48,207 bases of DNA from Chromera velia (taxonomy: Eukaryota). The DNA lies in NCBI GenBank assembly GCA_018398765.1, contig JAHBMJ010000496.1:1-48207 (forward strand), given 5' to 3'. Position 1 is the stretch's first letter. Each line of letters begins with the position of its first letter. The notes under the pieces were generated by a model. The model saw nothing but the letters and a program-made list of their open reading frames with translations. It was not told the DNA's origin and did no database searches. The position numbers and the translations under genes were made by a program. Below are positions 11,408 through 44,389 of the stretch, piece after piece.

Positions 11408-12996
11408 ATGACATAATGAGACCTACCGGACTTTAACATCATTTTGGACTTTGAAATATAGGAATAACATAGGGTGTTCTATTGTATTTAATCGTTGTTT
11501 ATAAGCTTTTAAATTTAATAAACATTCTTTAAAACGTGATTCTTTTAAAACAAAAGATAAAACAAAGAATTGAAGCTAGTTGTATCAATGTTAGATTATA
11601 ACTATATTTTAGTAACCATAATAGTAGCTGCATAATTGGCATATCTATGCATGATGCAATAAATGCGATCGAAAAGTAGATAGTTACCCCTGAAACTATT
11701 TAGTTTTAATTGACCCTACCTAACCAGGTCTGGCGACTGGATTTGCTCCCCCACTCCCCCAAGAAGGACCAATTAATAAATGACCTACCTAGGTCCTTTC
11801 GGGCAAAACCGTCCCCCACTCTCCTGGAGGTGGAGGTGAGAGGCAGCCCCAAAGCGACAAAATCTGCAATTGGTTCTTGTGGGGGCGGCGACCCGCGGCG
11901 ATTCATAGGTGCTGATCTGCTAGTGCTCCTCTTAATGCTCCGAAAGATGCTTTTCAGTGTTGTGGGTGCAGTCAACGCGCACGGAAAGGCAAACAAGCTA
12001 GCCAGATCTGACAGATTGAGCCTCTCCAATGACCTGCACAAAAAGAAACTTTATGCACACGAATTGCTTTGAGATAAAAGCCCCCCCAAAGCCACTTACT
12101 GATGACACTGTNNNNNNNNNNNNNNNNNGCAGACGATCTTGTTATTTTTGCTCACTCTTCTTCTGACCTGCAGTGGTGTTTGGACCGTTTGGCCTCTTAT
12201 TGTCAGGAACATGGGTTGAAAGTGAATTTAAAGAAAACAAAAGTTCTCGCACTCTCAGGCTCAAGAAGGGAAATAGAAGGGGAAGTGACTTTATGACATA
12301 ATGAGACCTACCGGACTTTAACATCATTTTGGACTTTGAAATATAGGAATAACATAGGGTGTTCTATTGTATTTAATCGTTGTTTATAAGCTTTTAAATT
12401 TAATAAACATTCTTTAAAACGTGATTCTTTTAAAACAAAAGATAAAACAAAGAATTGAAGCTAGTTGTATCAATGTTAGATTATAACTATATTTTAGTAA
12501 CCATAATAGTAGCTGCATAATTGGCATATCTATGCATGATGCAATAAATGCGATCGAAAAGTAGATAGTTACCCCTGAAACTATTTAGTTTTAATTGACC
12601 CTACCTAACCAGGTCTGGCGACTGGATTTGCTCCCCCACTCCCCCAAGAAGGACCAATTAATAAATGACCTACCTAGGTCCTTTCGGGCAAAACCGTCCC
12701 CCACTCTCCTGGAGGTGGAGGTGAGAGGCAGCCCCAAAGCGACAAAATCTGCAATTGGTTCTTGTGGGGGCGGCGACCCGCGGCGATTCATAGGTGCTGA
12801 TCTGCTAGTGCTCCTCTTAATGCTCCGAAAGATGCTTTTCAGTGTTGTGGGTGCAGTCAACGCGCACGGAAAGGCAAACAAGCTAGCCAGATCTGACAGA
12901 TTGAGCCTCTCCAATGACCTGCACAAAAAGAAACTTTATGCACACGAATTGCTTTGAGATAAAAGCCCTCCCAAAGCCACTTACTGATGACACTGT
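11244..12996. repeat. Tandem duplication 11244-12111 / 12129-12996 around a 17-N gap; probable assembly artefact
   Basis: Offset 885; only one difference noticed (C12084 / T12969); N run at 12112-12128. Confidence 0.85.
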
Positions 12997-26144: not shown

Positions 26145-27635
26145 ATGCTCTCTTTAGAGGGTTTTCTCTTTCGTGTGCTCGCCTGGGTGCTCGGAGTGCC
26201 TCCAGATGTGCAAAGGTTCTTCGAGAGACGGCAGAACCCTGTCGATACTTCTCTCGAGTGGGCACAGAGGCAGAGACGCAGACAGAAGTACCGTCTCCCT
26301 CAGAATGCTGAGGAGACGCACAGACGCACGGCACTGTGCCACTACAGCATATTCCCAGATGTCGATATGTGCAGACAGCTCTTGAGAGAAGGGGCAGATT
26401 CGAATGAGCTTGGATGTAAGGGAGAGGACGATGGATGGGCTCCCATTCATTGTGCAGCCTCTCACGGGAATGCTGAGATCCTTCTTGTCCTTTTGGAAGG
26501 AGGCGCCTTGGTGAATTTGCGAACCTCTGTACAGCAACAGACGGCACTTCACTGTGCTGCTCTCTCTTTGAACAGAGATTGTGTGCTCTGTCTTTTGGCA
26601 TTCGGGGCAGATCCCCGACTAAGAGATGTCGATGGACACTCACCCCTCGACTTTGCCCTTGCAGTTCAGGAGGGGGAAGGGGCGGATAGTGAGGGTCTCG
26701 TGCCCGTCTCCTCTCTACTCCGTCTGAGTCTCAAAGCCCGTATGCCCACCCCAGAAACGAGCCTTCTCCTCCCGTCTGTAGGTGGCATGATGTCAGAAGA
26801 TGTACAGAGAGAGGGGGACAAGGATGCAGGAGAAACGGAGTTTGGTGAAGGGGAAGAGGTGAAGAAGGTGAGACAGGCAGTCGGCCCCCTCGTGAGATCC
26901 GAAGATCTGCACAGAGAAGGGACCGCCACACCAACAGACGCACATGACGGCCCTTCCCTGTCTGTCAACTGTGACTACACGATAGCTGAAGGTCTCACAG
27001 CCCCCCCCTCCTCCCGCCACCCCGACTCTATGGGGTTTCCCTTCTGTGGGACCTTGACGGCCTCATCTTCACGTCCGCTGTCCGGGATTCCTCGGCCCTT
27101 AGAGCCACAGCGCCTTGAGTCAAACTCCTCTGCTGCAAAGCTGTGGGGGCAGACGAACACTGCCTCAGCAGCCTTTGCCCGTCCTGCCTGTTGCCTCTCT
27201 TGGAAAACAACCGGTTTGGTTGGAGGGGAGGCAGGCATTCAAGCGACATCTTGTCAGTGTGACTTCTGTCTGCCCTCGTGTGCATCTGTTTCCGATTCTG
27301 CAATGTCCCCAGTGTCAACAGAGAGACCACAGCAAACGCGCAAGACGAGCGAAACGCACCCACAGGGTTCTTGTGTAGAGCCCCCCCATTCAGCATACTC
27401 CCCCCCTCTCAGTGATGGCGGTGCAGAGAGATGTTTCTATGAAAACATTTCCCCCGTGGACTTTTTGCCCTCTCCTGTAGAGAGGGAGACTTTCTCGGAG
27501 GGGAAAGGGGGGGGGGCAGGGTTTTTTGCAAATGCTTCTTCTGTGCAAGGAGCAGTTGAAGGGAATGGCGACGGGGAGAGCGGGGAGGAAGATGAGAAGG
27601 AGACGGTACTGCATCAATGTGCGCTTCCTGACTGA
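26145..27635 (+). CDS. Ankyrin-repeat protein with long disordered C-terminus
   Basis: DGWAPIHCAASHGNAEILLVLLEGGALVN, QTALHCAA...CLLAFGADP, DGHSPLDFA. An upstream exon is possible (ttttccctttacag at ~26033). Confidence 0.85.
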   Translation: MLSLEGFLFRVLAWVLGVPPDVQRFFERRQNPVDTSLEWAQRQRRRQKYRLPQNAEETHRRTALCHYSIFPDVDMCRQLLREGADSNELGCKGEDDGWAPIHCAASHGNAEILLVLLEGGALVNLRTSVQQQTALHCAALSLNRDCVLCLLAFGADPRLRDVDGHSPLDFALAVQEGEGADSEGLVPVSSLLRLSLKARMPTPETSLLLPSVGGMMSEDVQREGDKDAGETEFGEGEEVKKVRQAVGPLVRSEDLHREGTATPTDAHDGPSLSVNCDYTIAEGLTAPPSSRHPDSMGFPFCGTLTASSSRPLSGIPRPLEPQRLESNSSAAKLWGQTNTASAAFARPACCLSWKTTGLVGGEAGIQATSCQCDFCLPSCASVSDSAMSPVSTERPQQTRKTSETHPQGSCVEPPHSAYSPPLSDGGAERCFYENISPVDFLPSPVERETFSEGKGGGAGFFANASSVQGAVEGNGDGESGEEDEKETVLHQCALPD

Positions 27636-36020: not shown

Positions 36021-39000
36021 TTACCCTTCACCCCTGCTGTATGCATACAACAACGGGGCATGCATAAGATCCGGAGGGAGGCCGACAGCTCTGAAACCTG
36101 CCAGTCTCTTCGTCCATGCCGCAAAAGACGCCGTAAAGCGCCTTTGTCTCTCCTCTTCCGCACGATCCTTCGCCCCCCCCGGCCCTCTTGGGGCCCCCGT
36201 CCCATCTCCAGACCGCCTCTCCTTCACTCTCGGCAACGAAGGAGACAAACCGATGTGGGTGTGTCGTCGCATTTGTGCATTCAATGCACTTTGTTCGCCC
36301 TGTTTTGATGAAAGGAGAGATGAGGAACTCGGCGGAGACGCGTCTGCCTCTCTCCCTCTGTCTCGTGCTTTCAGAGCGTCACCCCTGTCTTCATCTTCCA
36401 TGTCCAAGAACCCCGACTCAGAGGCATTCTCTTGATCTGATTCGGGTGGGGTGTCAATCTCAAACACCTCCACGCTCACGTTCATCCCGGAAGGAGACGG
36501 CAAAAGCATTTCGTTATCCCTCGGAGACAGGACAGAGGCCGGCGTAGGGCTTGGGTGAATGAGTCGGGAGACGGGACCGTTTGAGGGGGGGGTCACAGCA
36601 AAGGATACGGAGGGATGGGGGAGAAGGGAAGAGGGCTGAGGAGTACTTGACACTTCTTTCTCTATCTCTCCCTTTTCTTTTTCGGTTTTCGCTGCCTGGT
36701 GATTCTGCCGTGGAGCCTCCTTCTGATCTTGTTTTGAGAACCTCGGGGTGTGTGATGAAAGGGGAGACGCAGCAATACTCAGCTGGGGGGACAGAAGGAG
36801 GGCAAGGGGGTTGATCAGAGGGGAACGCACTTGGGTCGCACTTGGAGAGATCTGGAGGGATGGTGCCCCCGTATGTCGAAGAGGATGAGTAGTGGACTCA
36901 TCTGTATCCTCACCCCCCTTCTTTGACATTATTCCAGTCTGGTGAAGGAGTAATCGAAGAACGACACGTGGAGGAGGGGGGGGGGGGGGNNNNNNGGGGG
37001 GGGGGGGGGGGTGTTTTCTCTATGGCCTGCAGCACGGCACTCATCCAACATGAGAGCAGACCGCTCCGTAATTCCTCTGAAGCAATCGATTCGCGCAGAC
37101 CCAGAAGAAAGAGACGACGGGACCTTATGACCCCGCGGGAACGGAACGCTTGTGACACCGTCTCCCTGTCACCCCTGGCGTCTTTACTTTCTCTCTGCTT
37201 TCTCGCAGAGCTACTTAGCCCTCCATTGGCGAGGATTAAACCCTCAGCAGGGGCAGGGGGGAGACTGGCACCGAAAACGTCTTTCGATACTGCAGAGACA
37301 CACACTCCTGATTTTGTCTCAGATGGCAGAACCGAAATTTCTGCTGCTTCTGGGGGAAGTGTCCTTGAAGCGATGAGGAGACAGAGGGTGACCATCCTCC
37401 GAAATTGGAGGCTGGACAGGGCTGTGCCTTTGGACTCTGCTGAAAAGAGGAAACACTGGATAGGAGTCGTCTCTCGAACACCCCAGGCAGCACCCGCAGA
37501 ATCCTCGAGGGGGGCTGAAATTTCAATTTCCCTCACTTGTAATGACTTCAGGGGTGCGCTGTTCCTGTCAACCTTCCACGAGGAAGACGCGAAACGCGCC
37601 AGGCTCATAGCCGAAACCCGCCCCCCCTTCTGTAGAGCCTCGACTGCTTTCTTGAGGGCTTCGCTGTTCAGAACAAAGGAGGGAAGTGCTTGGGTAGATG
37701 TAGATGCTGCAGCTGCAGTTTCTCTGCTTTGGGTCATCCGGGGTGATGAAAACGAAGAGAAAGAGGAGGCCAGAGGGAACAGATATTCGACTCGTCGAAT
37801 AGCATTCCGGCCTTCTCGTTCTGCATTGAATGTTCTACGTACAGGCGCGAGTGCTAGAATGGAAATCTCGGGGGGCAGTTGTTGGCTCACAAAAGAAACC
37901 AACCGGGCACAAAGCGTGTCTGCAAGCGCTTCCGCCTCTCTCCTTACCCTTCCTGATCTTATTTCGTAATTCTGCTTTTCGGGCCCAGCCGCATCTTCCC
38001 CTATATAACTACACCCGCCACATTGCTTCTCTTCCTTCTCCCCCTCCATCCAACTCCCTTCGCTGAAGGTGCCCCTACTATGCCGACACCCCCTTTTCCT
38101 TCCTTGAATCTCCCTCAAAACTTCCGAGTTACCGAACCCCGTCTCCCCCCTCTCCAAACTACCAGGCGACTCTCTCCAATCCATCTCAAACAATTCCGAT
38201 ATTGTCGCACTCTGAAAACGTCTAGGCCCCTTTTCACCCCCCGCACCCCTGTCACCCCCCAGATGCCCATACAACATTGCAAGAGGCACCTCTCCCTCTG
38301 TACTCCCCTCATGAGTCTCATTCACCACTTCACTCAACCTACCCCCCTCCGAAAAGGGAAAATTCAACCCCCCCAAGACCCCCCCTCTGCCAAGTGCCGA
38401 TGGAAGCGTCACGGCCCGTCTGAAGAGATTCAACGCCACACCGGGGGTCTGTCCGTCTCCCCCTCCCCCCTCGACCCCCCCATTCCCCGACAGGAGCGTC
38501 TCAGGGGAGGCCGGGGGACTCCCACTCGACCCAGACGGGGCCGACACCTCCAGCCGTCCCGTCACAATCTGCCAGGAGGCAGAGACCCCCCCCTCAGTTG
38601 GGGCCAGACAGGACCAACGGGTTCTCAGAGAGTCCTGAAGGGCCGCGTGAGGAATCAGACCTGCATCTCGGGCGGGCGCCAAGAAAAACAAGAAGGGGAG
38701 GGAGAAGAAAACGTGTTGAGGATGACAGCAAGAAGAGAAAGGCAACAACAAATGGACGTTACGATGCTCCCTCCACAGCATGAGGACATGAAGCACAGGC
38801 TAACCATCCACAGGAAGACAAACAGATCCGACGAGCAAAGCAATAACCAAGAAAGAGTCTGAAAGACAGCCCACGAAACCTCCTACTGGGGTGCTTTCCC
38901 AATGATCCTTTCCGTTTCTCTTCATGCATTTACTTACTCACCTGCTTGAAAGAATGCCGCCTCCAATTCGGAGAGCAGAGAGGGACCATTGGACGACCGC

Positions 39001-39528: not shown

Positions 39529-40464
39529 TGCTTCAAGATTGCATGGAAAGGTTCATATATATATATAGCTTCCTCAGACCACATCATTTTGTCTCATCGC
39601 GCCTCTTTGCGGCTCCTTCGGGTTGCACGAAACAGAGAATCGAGACCGTCCTCAACTGCTCCATCGATACTGGAAAGGTTTGGCTCGCAAAGTGTCCGAC
39701 TCTCGCTCTGTTCACCCATTTGAGCAACATCTCTTCGTCCACAGGACCAGGTAAACAGTGTATTAGACTGCAAGTAGCAAAGCGAGCCCAGGGCCCCAGG
39801 CCAATGCATCGTACTTCGTCAATTTGACAGCACAGACTTTCTGGTCTGGACCACAATTAACCAGGATAGCGGAAGCAGCAGAGATCAGCAGAGTCGGACG
39901 TAGAATGGACGGGTACGTCATCTATATATAAGACTCATAACTTGCTGCTGCAATGCTAGCGCAAACACCAGAAATGCATCATAATCAGGAGTTGCCGTGC
40001 AACACATGGCAGCTATATAGTGTACGCGCAACACTGCCAATTAACACATCGAATCGCGCGGCCCGCGTAAAAGCCCCGCATGCAGGAAAATGACTGACCT
40101 TCGATCATGCATGCATGCATGCAAACACAGAGCCTGTGACAGAGGTCCTTCGTTCAAGTTTACAAACTGTGATATTAATATGAATATCCTTTCCGCAGTC
40201 AATCCCATCCCATCCCGCCTAGCTGTCTCCTGCCTGCCTGGCTGCACGGCGTTTCTTTCTCATGATTGGCATTTCTTTCTTCTCATGAAAAAGCTAATTA
40301 ATTACTCATGCTCCTCAAATTTGCCGCCCGCCGGACTGTCGTGTATCTGTGCTTTCCCAGTGCATGCATGACTCCCTCATGTGTATACATCTTCCAACAG
40401 TGAGGTTCAAAGTGTAAGCTCATTCAAAGACTTTCTACTCAACCAGATTGCCCTCCTACTCAAC

Positions 40465-42947
40465 ATGAACTTGAGTGCAATTCCGGTCGAGCTTGTTGAC
40501 TTGTTCTCTGAAGCCCCATCTCCATGGCACGGCACTTGCCTCAGATCACTCTCAATCGCTTCTAAGTACCGAGAGAATGGCATTGAAGGAATGATGGAGG
40601 GTTGTACTCTCGTCATTTGCGATGCCGACCCCTTTCTTAAAAGAGTCAATCCGTCAGAAGATGACTCGGCGCAGAGACGGACAGAGCAGGGCGCTGTGCT
40701 CGAACGAAACATCGAGCCCCATCCTCAACTAGACATTCGATCAGACAGAGGAAAAAGCAGACTGAGGCGACGGATGAACAAAGACGGAGCCCTCATCATT
40801 GATGGATGTACAGGGAGATTTATGGCGTCAGAAGTTTTCTTGAAGTACAATGGGACTGCTCCACGGCTTGGGGGGGGTCTGGGGACCGCCGTTGCAGAGG
40901 AGGTCGCGAGAAGTTCGGGGGCTTTCTGCATCAAGGTATCAAGGGATGGGGCCATTTTCGTGTTTTGCGGTGAGGCACGGCCACAAAAATGGAAAGGGGA
41001 AGATGCCCGTCTTCTGAAAGAGAATTATGGTGGTCATCTCGGTATCGATCTCGAAAAGGCGAAGCTTCACTTTCAGCATGAGCTTCCAGAGAACTACCAG
41101 ATCGTGAAAGAAGTGGGAAGAGGGAGATTTGGCTGCTGCTTTCTTGTTGCCAAGAAGCCTGAGCGATTGTACACTGCCGATTGCAGGAATAGTGAATGGC
41201 TGAAGCACCCATTGAAACCTTATCTGAGTCTCCCTCCCTTCCCGCCCCAAACAGAAGCCCGTGCGTACTCCGACGAAGAGTACGATCAGATGCGACACAA
41301 GAAGCTGAGAAACGAAGAAGATGACACAAGCCCGCAGCTGGTCGTCAAAGTCGTCCTAGGGCAACTCATTGACAAGCCGAGAAGACCTGCAATCTTCTAT
41401 AAGAGGAGCTCCGGGTACACTCTCGCTCTTTCCTTCAGAGCTTTTCCCCTCTCCCTCGATGATCTCCCCTTCACCCTGTGTATCCTCAAACACCACCATC
41501 TCCGGTATAAAGAGGTGCACGGCGACTTGAACCCCAGCAACATGTACTACTTTGCTAAAGACGTGAAAGCGCATGACAGAAACACGCTGTACCCGAGCAC
41601 AGAAGAAGATGGTTCCATCACCTACACAAGGACCGCTTTGCAGCATCACATAGTAGATGTCATGATCAACCCAGAGTTTCAGCTCTCATACAAGTGGGAG
41701 GGGGGAGAGGATGAAAAGACGTGGTGCATAATCGACAGTGATCAAGGAGGAACAATCGCTTCACCTAAGCAAATCGTCAGCACGTACCACCATGACCCCC
41801 GAAACGCCACATGGGAAGTGTCCGATGACCTCATTGGTCTTCTCAACTGTGTGGTTGTCCGCATTGTTGGGCCACACGGCCTCAAGGTCGATACCGCGAA
41901 GGGGTTTTGCTATTCCGTCAGTCTGGACTCTTTGCAGGGTCTCTACCTACGCATCAAAAAGCTGTATGAGGACATAGAAAGTGATCCAAGCCGAGGCTAC
42001 CCCGTCCCAATCCCAGACCCTGAAAAGTGGAAAAAACCGTTGGAGTGGCAACCTGTCCCCGGCACAAGTTTTCTCGATGAGTTAGTGGGAGGAGGGCCGA
42101 TGCTTCGCTTCGTGCGGCCCTTTACTGATGCTTATTCCGTCCTGGATTCTGTCTCTCTCACTCAGCCGTCTTGTATCGCCATCACATCCCCTGTCGTGCC
42201 CCAGCAACAGACTCCCGTGAAAGTCTCTGCAGTTCTCCAACCACACACGCTTGCAACAGGCCTCCGGGAGTGGAGAGTGTTTGAGAGACTGCGGTGGCAG
42301 TGGAGAAGCACGTCGGAAGAATCAGAATTTCTAGACACCCTGACGAGACTTGTCAGCATTGCCGTTGAGAGGCCTCCAAAAGGAGGTACGGGGGATAGAA
42401 GTCTTGGGGGATGGTTGGTGGCTTTGGTGGAGAAAGAGAGGAAGTCGGGGATTCCGATTACTGTCCAAGACGGGGGCACACTTTTGGATGTCTTGCGTCA
42501 GGTGGGTGGGTTGAAGGTACATAGTGAGACCTTCAAGTCAGTCATAACGGCATTTTCTGTGAAGACCGGATCAGACAGGTGGGAAAGCCGCCTCCTCGAC
42601 AGTCTCTTTCAAACTCTTGCACGCTCAACAGTGGCAGACAGGCATATGCACTCGAGGACCATCCGAAAGACGGAGGGTTTGTGTGTACCTTCAGTGGGAC
42701 TGTGGTTGCAGCCACGGTCTTGTTGCAGGGTGACACTGCTCCCTACTGTCTTGAGGGGTTGGACGGGAAGTCTGCAGCTGGCAGGCACGACGGAGCTTTC
42801 AAAGGCGCGGAGTGGATGAGTGCAAAAGGCATGAAGGGGGTGGTGGTTGTGAAGTCTGAGAGTGGCAGAGTTCACATGGTTTTTCCCGGCAGACCCGCCC
42901 AAACGACGCCGGCAGTATTGCCAACAGTGTTTAAAATTGAACTGTAA
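40465..42947 (+). CDS. DAC (DisA_N/diadenylate cyclase-like) - protein kinase-like - DAC fusion protein
   Basis: N-terminal domain IASKYRENGIEGMMEGCTLVICD...KDGALIID...IKVSRDGAIFVF. Kinase motifs VGRGRFG, VVKVV, VHGDLNPSN, IIDSDQG. C-terminal domain PKDGGFV..SGTVVAATVLL...GRHDGA...VVVKSESGRV in the overlapping ORF 42579..42947, joinable by a 53-nt GT-AG intron (42579-42631). Confidence 0.82.
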
Positions 42948-44389
42948 GGTGATAAACCTAGTGATAGACTACTTTTTCGCCATCCTTAATTTCATATTCA
43001 CAATAAACTTTTCATCTTCTCAGTTTATATTTTTCGATAAACATCATACTACTACTAAGTAAAAGGTTATATATATTGTAGCATCATGATACGACTAGTG
43101 TAGACTAGTGATATGATTTGATGTGCTCTTCATAGCTCTTCATTACTAGCTTCATTATTTGTTAAGATAAATATTTCTAGAAATATTTCTTTAGCTTATT
43201 ATAAAATGTAAGCATCTTTCTCGCCGGTAGACTAGTATTAAAACTATAGTTATGGAGCACTTTTTGTTTTTATCGCTAGACCTTGAAGGTGGAGTTTTAT
43301 ACTACCTCTAGAGAAACCTCTAGTCTAGTGTCTAGTGATGTCTTAGCCTACTGAGCCTAGGCTGGGACTTCACAGTAATTTCCACTAAAAATTTCTGTTT
43401 CCGACGTTTCAGTCAACCTCTTATATATTTACTAGTACAATAACTAAAAAAACTCTTAATCAATCTGAATTTTATTCATGTTATCATCGCTTACTATCTT
43501 ATTAAACTGTAAAACTACATTCAATCTAGTATTCAATACTGTTCTAATTTATTTGTATTCTTTGTTTGATCAAAACTGACTTAGAAATCATTGTGATATT
43601 GATTAAGTCAATTTATTAAGTCTACATATCAACAGGTTTAAATTTGCAAACTTTAGTTAAGATTAGTAGCTAGATTGATATCTCAAACAGTTTTGTTCTT
43701 TCAATTTTTTTTTTAATGTGCACCTCTTCTCTTCTTCACCCTTGGAGCAGGATCAAAATTTTAATGGTATGCCTCCTTTTGAGATGCAGGTCGAATCGGA
43801 TGCGGCGAGGCTGATCCAATGGAGGCGGAATGGCCACGGGTGGCACAGAGAGGCAAACGCTGCATTCAAACTAGGCATTCAAAAGGCAAGAAAAAATGTG
43901 GATCCACAAACTATTCACAGTGAAAAGAGCTAAAATTTTGGAGGATTTGCGAAAGAACAAATGAAAAGAAAGGTAAGTGTGACCTGTCGTCACTGACTAG
44001 TTAGTTTAGTCACCTAGGTAGTCACAAATCTCTCCCATCCCTGTGGGTGAGGTGATCGAGTTCCTGCAGGTTGCGGGACTCCAACATATGCTTCAAAAAA
44101 CCCTTTTTAACCTTCTTGGGAAGCGGTTTTCTCAAGAACCCCGCCCCATTTTGGATCTCTCTCCATGCAGCTCCCCGGGCCTGCAGGTCCAGACATCCTG
44201 CAAAGGGATCAAAGAAACCGCATGAGTCTGTGCAATTAAAAGAGGAAGGAGAAGATAGGAAAGGTTATAAACTGTCGAAGACATACAGAGAGGACTCTTG
44301 TGACTGTATGGGCCAATGCGCAGACTGTTGGTCTTTCTGCCTATCTGACAGTATTTGTCTGCCTCTTTGTTCACTTGCCTCAGGCTGCT

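What the first reader, a model, noticed from the sequence alone, without database searches (positions are those of the whole stretch)
40783..42788. The two DAC halves carry complementary catalytic motifs (possible intramolecular pseudo-heterodimer)
Seen: DAC-1 keeps DGA but has GGGLGTAVA where GTRHR is expected (no Arg-His). DAC-2 has DGG and keeps RH (AGRHDGA). Established: DAC catalysis occurs at a head-to-head interface of two DAC domains, with Asp and His residues from opposing protomers contributing. Inference: one chain could form an asymmetric centre with one complete and one degenerate half-site, like the C1/C2 halves of animal adenylyl cyclases. This could give a linear or non-canonical dinucleotide, or an allosteric site gated by the intervening kinase.
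Basis: partly seen in the sequence, partly recalled or inferred. Interest (0 to 1): 0.8.

Follow-up and report, generated by a model that had tools for sequence, protein, structure and literature searches.

The report
Two unlike DAC domains, one gene
A eukaryotic (likely chromerid alga) gene joins two different diadenylate-cyclase-fold domains around a kinase-like region; the two likely act separately rather than as one complementary pair, and this copy is broken by a 7-base deletion.

Summary
DAC-1 (40465-41004) is a true DAC fold: AF2 pLDDT 92, and VIA Z 14.4 to DisA. Two points change the picture.

1. DAC-2's motifs (DGG, AGRHDGA) lie in a different reading frame from the rest of the gene. 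Homology runs in frame 1 to about 42642 and resumes in frame 0 at 42645. Two DNA runs confirm this state. One small contig of another run carries 7 extra letters behind 42643 that restore the frame.

2. The two DAC domains belong to two separate families.
- The DAC-1 type has no RHR in any of 21 sequences, but keeps Asp, Ser and a second Asp in 20 of 21. None of its 22 relatives carries the kinase-DAC-2 part; three are fused to NB-ARC. The closest are Chromera velia proteins.
- The DAC-2 type follows a kinase-like region in 33 relatives. All 33 keep DGA, 32 keep RH, and none has DAC-1.

DAC-2 therefore carries both Asp and RH, so the motifs are not complementary. The RH loss in DAC-1 is a conserved family trait, not decay. 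An intramolecular DAC-1:DAC-2 centre remains untested and I rate it unlikely (about 0.1). This is a new domain architecture of a known fold, of moderate interest.

The parts
40465..42819 (+). Frame-1 ORF as it stands in this assembly, from the likely start ATG. It gives 784 aa; the last 58 aa, from 42643 on, are out of frame.
   Evidence: The start is chosen because the N-termini of the relatives P0096 and P0097 align here. An in-frame stop lies just upstream, at 40378-40380.
40465..41004 (+). DAC-1: a DAC-fold domain of the RHR-less type.
   Evidence: AF2 pLDDT 92.2. Foldseek gives 63 PDB matches at E<=1e-3, and all listed are DACs. VIA Z 14.4, rmsd 2.8, 138 residues aligned to DisA. The family profile hits CdaA at E 2.9e-5.
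40783..40791 (+). DGA motif of DAC-1.
   Evidence: Asp is kept in 20 of 21 family members.
40870..40896 (+). GGGLGTAVA loop, at the place of CdaA's L-G-T-R-H-R-A-A.
   Evidence: The HMM alignment to CdaA puts G-T-A of the window on R203-H204-R205.
40936..40950 (+). VSRDG of DAC-1, aligned to CdaA's VSEE(T)G. Ser and the second acidic residue are kept.
   Evidence: Ser is kept in 20 of 21 and Asp in 20 of 21.
41005..41870 (+). Kinase-like region. Its motifs are GRGRFGC at 41116-41136, VVKVV at 41341-41355, HGDLNPSN at 41518-41541 and IIDSDQGG at 41728-41751.
   Evidence: The motifs are conserved in 34 of 35 relatives. Similarity to protein kinases is only weak: Pfam Pkinase E 0.004-0.19, below its cut-off; PDB profile E 0.053; Foldseek on a poor model, pLDDT 50.8, lists only kinases.
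41871..42258 (+). Conserved linker region of unknown fold between the kinase-like region and DAC-2.
   Evidence: It aligns with the relatives. The model has low confidence here.
42259..42642 (+). First half of DAC-2, in frame 1. It holds the helices, the GGWLVALVE strand and the SDRWESRLLDSLF stretch.
   Evidence: Homology to the kinase-DAC family continues in frame 1 up to here.
42643..42644 (+). Frame break. The window lacks 7 letters that one contig of run X3 has behind 42643.
   Evidence: table 4. tblastn switches frame here. With the 7 letters the linker is 15 residues long, as in most relatives.
42645..42947 (+). Second half of DAC-2, in frame 0, with its stop codon. Its motifs are DGG at 42669-42677, AGRHDGA at 42777-42797 and KSESG at 42852-42866.
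   Evidence: It is 37-45% identical to the C-termini of 17 relatives.

Best explanation
The window holds a single-exon eukaryotic gene that joins an RHR-less DAC-fold domain, a kinase-like region and a second DAC domain of a different family. In this assembly a 7-base deletion breaks it inside the second domain. The two DAC domains likely work as independent modules, each pairing with its own kind, and not as one complementary pair.

Shown:
- DAC-1 has the DAC fold.
- Its family keeps the Asp of DGA, the Ser and a second acidic residue, but has a Gly-rich loop where RHR should be.
- Three of its relatives (all Chromera velia proteins) have NB-ARC behind it. One has weak GTPase matches below Pfam's cut-offs, and one is a long, Glu/Lys-rich protein with no confident Pfam match.
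- DAC-2 belongs to a kinase-like + DAC family whose members keep DGA and G-T-R-H and have no DAC-1.

Inferred:
- The motif differences are family signatures brought together by domain shuffling.
- DAC-2 would pair with another DAC-2 to make or bind a c-di-AMP-like nucleotide, with the kinase-like region as its conserved partner.
- DAC-1 would pair with DAC-1 domains, its own or those of the NB-ARC proteins. This would tie the protein to an NLR-like, oligomerisation-driven pathway, either as an enzyme with altered phosphate binding or as an adaptor.
- In the strain sequenced here the product would lack DAC-2's catalytic half.
For: DAC-1 fold: with sequence support.

Conserved remodelling in 21 DAC-1-type sequences: D 20/21, G 20/21, S 20/21, second acid D 20/21; R203 position is Gly in 19/21; His 0/21.

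Partners of DAC-1-type domains: NB-ARC above Pfam's cut-off in 3 of 20 scanned (P0097, P0099, P0112). Weak GTPase and COR-A matches, below their cut-offs, occur in P0100 and P0106. Seven of the closest relatives are Chromera velia proteins.

No DAC-1-type relative among the 22 has the kinase-DAC-2 part.

Kinase-DAC family: 35 relatives at 30-38% identity. PF02457 is found in 32 of 35. DGA is kept in 33 of 33 with a C-terminus and G[TS]RH in 32 of 33. None has DAC-1; their N-termini are low-complexity.

DAC-1 and DAC-2 are not close to each other: 14% identity, hhalign E 0.11, and no significant blastp match.

Frame break. Two DNA runs show 0 differences over 39800-43300. The X3 contig has 7 extra letters.

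Head-to-head pairing is required for DAC catalysis (PMC8573169, passages).
Against: - No experiment and no structure of the whole protein exists, so independence of the two domains is inferred from co-occurrence only.
- The fusion exists and its 2.35-kb frame is otherwise open, which could mean selection for the combination.
- The relatives of the kinase-DAC part come from unnamed assemblies, so I cannot say how far they are from this organism.
- DAC-2's assignment rests on Pfam scores near the cut-off: only 4 of 11 relatives reach 27 bits. The family profile found no DAC chain in the PDB at E<=10. The window's own DAC-2 half gets no Pfam hit.
- The intact allele rests on one 185-base contig of depth 2.7, which could be an error, another haplotype or a recent paralogue.
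- The homotypic-pairing role of DAC-1 is by analogy only.
Confidence: 0.5

Rival explanations
1. DAC-1 and DAC-2 of one chain would fold back head to head and form an asymmetric centre with one complete and one altered half-site. That centre would give a linear or non-canonical dinucleotide, or an allosteric site.
For: - Both domains sit in one gene.
- RH loss in DAC-1 is conserved, not random, and its metal-type Asp/Ser/Asp residues are kept.
- Asymmetric DAC active sites and non-c-di-AMP products are known for the bacterial PanS (10.64898/2026.08.10.743927 and PMC13640721, passages).
- The window's DAC-2 has Gly where DisA has T107, as EcPanS does. This is a lead only.
Against: - DAC-2 keeps both Asp and RH, so nothing is split between the halves.
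- 33 of 33 DAC-2-type relatives lack DAC-1, and 22 of 22 DAC-1-type relatives lack the kinase-DAC-2 part.
- The architecture was found only in the window's own protein.
- About 420 residues separate the two domains.
- In this assembly DAC-2's motifs are out of frame.
Confidence: 0.1
2. The copy in this strain is a decaying pseudogene, and the deviant DAC-2 motifs are part of that decay rather than a functional design.
For: - The frame break is seen in two DNA runs at depths 30 and 15.
- The window's DAC-2 alone departs from positions otherwise fixed in its family: DGA becomes DGG (33 of 33 others have Ala), G-T-R-H-A becomes A-G-R-H-D.
- Neither window piece gets a Pfam hit at E<=1.
Against: - Apart from the one break, the frame is open for 2.35 kb.
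- All four kinase-like motifs and all conserved DAC-1 residues are intact.
- A frame-restoring allele exists in run X3.
- Small contigs of two runs guessed to be RNA lie on the gene.
Confidence: 0.25
3. DAC-1 is not an enzyme. It would be a nucleotide-binding sensor or a pure adaptor that would read the product of DAC-2 or of other cyclases and would gate the kinase-like region.
For: - The RHR motif, which contacts phosphate and ribose in known DACs (10.64898/2026.08.10.743927, passages), is absent in all 21 family members.
- The domain sits where NLR-type proteins carry signalling domains.
Against: The Asp of DGA, the Ser and the second acidic residue are each kept in 20 of 21 sequences. This fits a retained metal-nucleotide site better than a dead scaffold.
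Confidence: 0.15

Closest known systems
Bacterial diadenylate cyclases DisA and CdaA/DacA (Pfam PF02457)
   Same: Same fold for DAC-1 (Z 11-14.4). DGA Asp, Ser and an acidic residue sit at the aligned places. The DAC-2 family matches PF02457 and keeps DGA and G-T-R-H.
   Different: - DAC-1 has no RHR.
- The DAC-2 family has R-H-A rather than R-H-R, and the window's copy has DGG and A-G-R-H-D.
- The host is a eukaryote.
- The domains are fused to a kinase-like region. There is no membrane anchor and no DisA helical spine.
- No activity is known.
PanS minimal DACs of the PanDA / Panoptoo anti-phage systems (PMC13640721 abstract and passages; 10.64898/2026.08.10.743927 listing abstract and passages)
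   Same: Divergent DAC domains used in immune-type signalling. PanS forms an asymmetric active site and makes products other than c-di-AMP (3'3'-cUA). EcPanS has Gly at the DisA T107 place, as the window's DAC-2 does.
   Different: PanS is a stand-alone bacterial homodimer that keeps the G-R of the RHR region. Its asymmetry arises from two conformations of one protein, not from two different domains in one chain.
Chromera velia DAC-like/NB-ARC proteins (UniRef A0A0G4FHP4, A0A0G4FBS7, A0A0K6S6C6; also A0A0G4HC97 and A0A0G4F0C9)
   Same: Their N-terminal domain is 44-56% identical to DAC-1 and has the same GGGLG-x-A loop.
   Different: They carry NB-ARC, a Glu/Lys-rich tail or other domains behind it. 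They do not carry the kinase-like region and DAC-2.
C1/C2 pseudo-heterodimer of animal class III adenylyl cyclases
   Same: Two related catalytic domains in one chain, one of them with an altered site.
   Different: In C1/C2 the catalytic residues are divided between the halves and the halves always co-occur. Here DAC-2 has a full set for its family, and each domain type normally occurs without the other.
NOD1/2-RIPK2 type pairing of an NLR and a kinase through a shared domain (recalled, no call)
   Same: One domain type is shared between NB-ARC/NACHT-type proteins and a kinase-bearing protein.
   Different: The shared domain here has an enzyme fold (DAC), not a death fold. No interaction has been shown.

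Membership tests
DAC domain (PF02457, DisA_N) | DAC alpha/beta fold, tested on DAC-1 | tested here: met
   Model pLDDT 92.2. VIA Z 14.4, rmsd 2.8, 138 aligned to DisA; 72 chains reach Z>=8, and the next other fold scores Z 2.5. All listed Foldseek hits are DACs.
DAC domain (PF02457, DisA_N) | Sequence match to the family model, tested on both domains of the window | tested here: not met
   No Pfam hit at E<=1 on window:40381-42819 or window:42579-42947. Relatives do match: 32 of 35 kinase-DAC relatives at E<=0.01, and 4 of 11 reach the 27-bit cut-off. The DAC-1 family profile hits CdaA chains at E 2.9e-5.
DAC domain (PF02457, DisA_N) | DGA motif | tested here: met
   DAC-1 has DGA at 40783-40791. 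DAC-2 has DGG at 42669-42677, so the Asp is kept and Ala becomes Gly.
DAC domain (PF02457, DisA_N) | RHR motif | tested here: not met
   In DAC-1, G-T-A aligns to R203-H204-R205 of CdaA, and no His or Arg-Arg occurs there in any of 21 family members. DAC-2 has R-H-D. Its family has R-H-A or R-H-S in 32 of 33 members.
DAC domain (PF02457, DisA_N) | Head-to-head pairing of two DAC domains and synthesis of c-di-AMP | not testable with these tools
   This needs biochemistry or a structure of the intact protein. The requirement itself is from PMC8573169 (passages).
DAC domain (PF02457, DisA_N) | DAC fold of DAC-2 | not tested
Eukaryotic protein kinase-like superfamily (middle region) | Gly-rich loop, beta-3 Lys, HxD...N catalytic loop, metal-binding Asp | tested here: inconclusive
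   All four motif strings are present in the window and in 34 of 35 relatives. However, Pfam Pkinase stays below its cut-off, with a best score of 17 bits against 31.7. The PDB profile's best E is 0.053. The model has pLDDT 50.8, and its Foldseek hits are kinases at TM 0.17-0.29 only. No alpha-C Glu was identified.
Intramolecular pseudo-heterodimeric cyclase (C1/C2-like) | Catalytic residues divided between the two halves | tested here: not met
   DAC-2 carries Asp and Arg-His together. Only DAC-1 lacks Arg-His.
Intramolecular pseudo-heterodimeric cyclase (C1/C2-like) | The two halves co-occur throughout the family | tested here: not met
   0 of 33 DAC-2-type relatives have DAC-1. 0 of 22 DAC-1-type relatives have the kinase-DAC-2 part.
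NLR / STAND NTPase | NB-ARC or NACHT NTPase domain in the protein | tested here: not met
   There is no such Pfam hit on the window's ORF. NB-ARC is found only in DAC-1-bearing relatives.

The most novel reading that the evidence does not exclude
RHR-less DAC-fold domains are the signalling heads of a eukaryotic NLR-like network. NB-ARC oligomerisation brings them head to head to make a non-canonical nucleotide signal. This gene wires such a head to a kinase-like + DAC-2 module. In the intact allele, DAC-1 and DAC-2 can also pair into an asymmetric centre that makes a linear or mixed dinucleotide. This would be the first eukaryotic DAC-based second-messenger pathway.
Probability: 0.12. Interest if true: 0.85.

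Novelty: new variant of a known kind. Interest (0 to 1): 0.5.

Why it matters
DAC enzymes are treated as bacterial and archaeal signalling enzymes. Only in 2026 were minimal DACs shown to act in bacterial anti-phage immunity (PMC13640721, abstract).

Here a eukaryote, likely a chromerid alga, has two separate families of DAC-fold domains. One follows a conserved kinase-like region. The other is a remodelled, RHR-less type that also sits in front of NB-ARC domains, the place where plant and animal NLRs carry their signalling domains.

If either type is active, it would point to DAC-derived nucleotide signalling in eukaryotic NLR-like pathways, parallel to TIR- and cGAS-type systems.

For the finding as written, the value is corrective. 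The motif pattern reflects two families joined by domain shuffling, not a division of labour, and the copy in this assembly is frame-shifted.

Tried and rejected
- **Intron at 42502-42578.** I first read a 77-base GT..AG intron that would join the two frames. I rejected it because homology to 17 relatives continues in frame 1 through 42609 and resumes in frame 0 at 42648.
- **Complex prediction**. Chains were DAC-2 first half, DAC-2 second half and DAC-1 as partner, with 2 ATP. ipSAE was 0.00 and 0.00, the verdict was 'no answer', and my alignments were not used. This is no evidence either way.
- **Middle region 41005-42258.** The AF2 model reached only pLDDT 50.8, so its Foldseek list is weak.
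- **hhalign of the DAC-1 family against the DAC-2 family.** E 0.11, probability 0.5, not significant, although the expected motif columns align.
- **DAC-2 family against the PDB.** The family profile found no DAC chain among 42 hits at E<=10. P0036 alone hit CdaA 8ofg at E 1.4.
- **No whole genome is held** for this window, so paralogues in the same genome could not be searched. tblastn of 15 relatives against the window finds only this locus.
- **Sequencing runs.** No RNA holder is listed. X3 and X4 are only guessed to be RNA. The second laying (X5-X8) gave only tiny identical pieces and nothing on orthologues.
- **Near-length search with DAC-1 as the scored region:** only the window's own protein.
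- **Viral contigs:** no relative of the DAC-2 half. **Metagenome contigs:** 3 loci, L001-L003. I looked only at the ORFs and composition of L002, which were uninformative.
- **Rfam and tRNA scans of the window:** nothing.
- **Earlier findings of this scan:** nothing.
- **ESM Atlas on P0007:** scores under 0.8, with kinases as leads only.
- **Literature**. No paper in the listings I saw (7-15 rows each) describes eukaryotic DAC domains fused to NB-ARC or to a kinase. PMC7159879 holds 'DisA' only inside a word of its reference list. bioRxiv supplements, where the alignments of the PanS papers lie, could not be seen.
Full report
**What is there**

The window looks eukaryotic. ORFs are sparse, composition is patchy, no tRNA or Rfam family is found, and no prokaryote genome is held for it.

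The finding lies in one long frame-1 ORF (40381-42819 from a GTG) and an overlapping frame-0 ORF (42579-42947). By alignment with the N-termini of the closest relatives, the likely start is the ATG at 40465.

- KDGALIIDG at 40780-40806
- GGGLGTAVA at 40870-40896
- KDGGF at 42666-42680
- AGRHDGA at 42777-42797

**The frame break**

I first took 42502-42578 for a small intron, but the alignment rejects that. Against 17 relatives, homology continues in frame 1 through SDRWESRLLDSLF (to 42609) and resumes in frame 0 at 42648. tblastn with three relatives switches frame at the same place. So the assembly has a net loss of one base (mod 3) between 42610 and 42647.

- Contigs of two DNA runs (X1 at depth 30, X2 at depth 15; either may be the source) match 39800-43300 with no difference. 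The break is therefore not a slip of this one record.
- One 185-base contig of run X3 carries 7 extra letters behind 42643 and one C>T at 42622. X3 has the same organism label, comes from another study, is guessed to be RNA, and has depth 2.7.
- Seven letters restore the frame, and the linker then has 15 residues, as in most relatives.
- As it stands, the window's product would be 784 aa, with 58 out-of-frame residues in place of DAC-2's motif-bearing half.
- The intact form would be 829 aa (my arithmetic).
- Caveat: the intact form rests on one thin contig, which could also be a second haplotype or a recent paralogue.

**DAC-1 is a real DAC fold of a special type**

Pfam gives nothing on the window's protein at E<=1. 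Other evidence is strong.
- A full HMMER search with residues 1-208 of the ORF against 1.84 billion representatives gave 23 proteins at E<=1e-3, including the window's own.
- With 20 of these as the alignment, AlphaFold2 gave pLDDT 92.2. P0107 and P0109 were left out for length.
- Foldseek found 63 PDB matches at E<=1e-3, and all those listed are diadenylate cyclases.
- VIA-align gave Z 14.4 (rmsd 2.8, 138 residues) to M. tuberculosis DisA. 72 chains reached Z>=8, and the next unrelated folds scored Z 2.5.
- The family profile hits CdaA chains at E 2.9e-5.
- The ESM Atlas also points to DAC clusters, with a score of 0.92.

The alignment to CdaA maps the motifs as follows:
- DGA lies on D171-G-A.
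- The window's G-T-A lies on R203-H204-R205.
- VSRD lies on VSEE.

Counting the 21 aligned sequences:

| CdaA position | What the DAC-1 family has |
|---|---|
| D171 (Asp of DGA) | Asp in 20 |
| G172 | Gly in 20 |
| S222 | Ser in 20 |
| E224 (second acid) | Asp in 20 and Glu in 1 |
| R203 | Gly in 19, Arg in 2 |
| H204 | His in 0 |
| R205 | Arg in 0, Lys in 2 |

The loss of RHR is thus a fixed family trait, next to a conserved Asp/Ser/Asp set. This is a remodelled site, not random decay.

**Who carries DAC-1-type domains**

Of the 22 relatives, 20 were scanned.
- NB-ARC lies behind the domain in 3, above Pfam's cut-off (P0097, P0099, P0112).
- Weak GTPase (P0100) and COR-A (P0106) matches fall below their cut-offs.
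- P0098 is a long Glu/Lys-rich protein.
- None has the kinase-like + DAC-2 part.
- The seven closest are named Chromera velia CCMP2878 proteins. The window is therefore likely from a chromerid or a close relative (inference).
- Two very long proteins, one from Amorphochlora amoebiformis, have G-A-R-T-R-A-A at the motif, an intermediate state.

**DAC-2 and the kinase-like region belong to another family**

A search with the frame-1 part gave 35 relatives at 30-38% identity. They are about 520-690 aa long and come from unnamed ENA/Logan/JGI assemblies.
- PF02457 matches 32 of 35 at E<=0.01. It was precomputed for 26 of 35. Scores sit near the cut-off: 4 of 11 scanned reach 27 bits.
- 33 of the 35 reach the C-terminus. 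All 33 have K/M-DGAF. 32 have G-[TS]-R-H followed by A or S, and one has G-T-C-H.
- None has a DAC-1. Their N-termini are low-complexity, with a short W-[IV]-D-x-G-Y-V-x-P motif.
- The window's DAC-2 is the only one with DGG and A-G-R-H-D.

For the middle region:
- The motifs G-x-G-x-F-G-C, VVLKV, H-G-D-L-N-x-x-N and I-I-D-x-D-x-G-G are each present in 34 of 35 relatives and in the window.
- Similarity to protein kinases is weak throughout.
- The model is poor, with pLDDT 50.8.
- 'Kinase-like' is therefore the right level of claim.

**The two DAC domains compared**

They share 14% identity. hhalign gives E 0.11, which is not significant, though the DGA and S-x-x-G columns line up. blastp finds nothing significant between them. 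They are not a tandem duplication.

- Head-to-head pairing of two DAC domains is needed for catalysis, and DGA and RHR bind the ligand (PMC8573169, passages). That part of the premise holds.
- The motifs are not complementary, because DAC-2 has both Asp and Arg-His.
- Each domain type normally lives without the other: 0 of 33 and 0 of 22.
- The simplest reading is domain shuffling of two self-sufficient modules. I infer that DAC-2 would pair with DAC-2, as every relative must. I also infer that DAC-1 would pair with DAC-1, including those on the NB-ARC proteins. This is a layout like an NLR and a kinase sharing one domain (recalled analogy).
- Whether DAC-1 is an enzyme with altered phosphate binding or an adaptor/sensor is open. 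The conserved Asp/Ser/Asp set favours a live nucleotide site.
Bacterial PanS shows that DAC sites can be asymmetric and can make 3'3'-cUA (10.64898/2026.08.10.743927, passages). EcPanS has Gly at the DisA T107 place (PMC13640721, passages), as the window's DAC-2 does.
- The interface test gave no verdict (see Tried and rejected).

**Novelty**

In five literature searches the rows I saw held no paper on eukaryotic DAC domains joined to NB-ARC or to a kinase-like region. UniRef merely auto-names one relative 'DAC domain-containing protein'.

I file this as a new variant of a known kind. The specific claim of complementary motifs is not borne out, the copy here is frame-shifted, and the wider pattern (two eukaryotic DAC-fold families, one linked to NLR-like proteins) is the interesting part.

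Noticed in passing
window 26145-27635 (+): A 496-aa ORF with ankyrin repeats (Pfam Ank_2 E 1.5e-14). It is the only other ORF of 10 scanned that got a Pfam hit.
   Followed up: no
window 40082-40123: Just upstream of the gene, several other contigs of runs X1 and X2 match 17-21 bases and then run on unlike the window (loose ends). This looks like a short dispersed repeat. A further 18-base match of another contig lies inside DAC-1, at 40828-40845.
   Followed up: no
window 36021-38796 (-): Two long low-complexity ORFs of 302 and 628 aa, rich in Ser, Pro and Gly, have no Pfam hit. The second holds a run of N at 36990-36995.
   Followed up: no
window 9030, 12112-12128, 36990-36995: The window holds 24 N in three places.
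   Followed up: no
P0107 (1928 aa) and P0109 (2092 aa, Amorphochlora amoebiformis): Very long proteins with an internal DAC domain whose motif reads G-A-R-T-R-A-A. This is intermediate between the bacterial G-T-R-H-R and the RHR-less DAC-1 type.
   Followed up: partly
relatives P0004-P0034, N-terminal to the kinase-like region: The kinase-DAC family has a conserved short motif W-[IV]-D-x-G-Y-V-x-P after a low-complexity N-terminus that often starts MGN (a possible myristoylation signal, recalled). The window's protein has DAC-1 at this place instead.
   Followed up: no
window 40926-41124: A marine sediment metagenome run (X6) holds an identical 199-base contig that spans the DAC-1/kinase-like junction. 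Run X5, with another organism label, holds an identical 202-base piece at 41807-42008.
   Followed up: no
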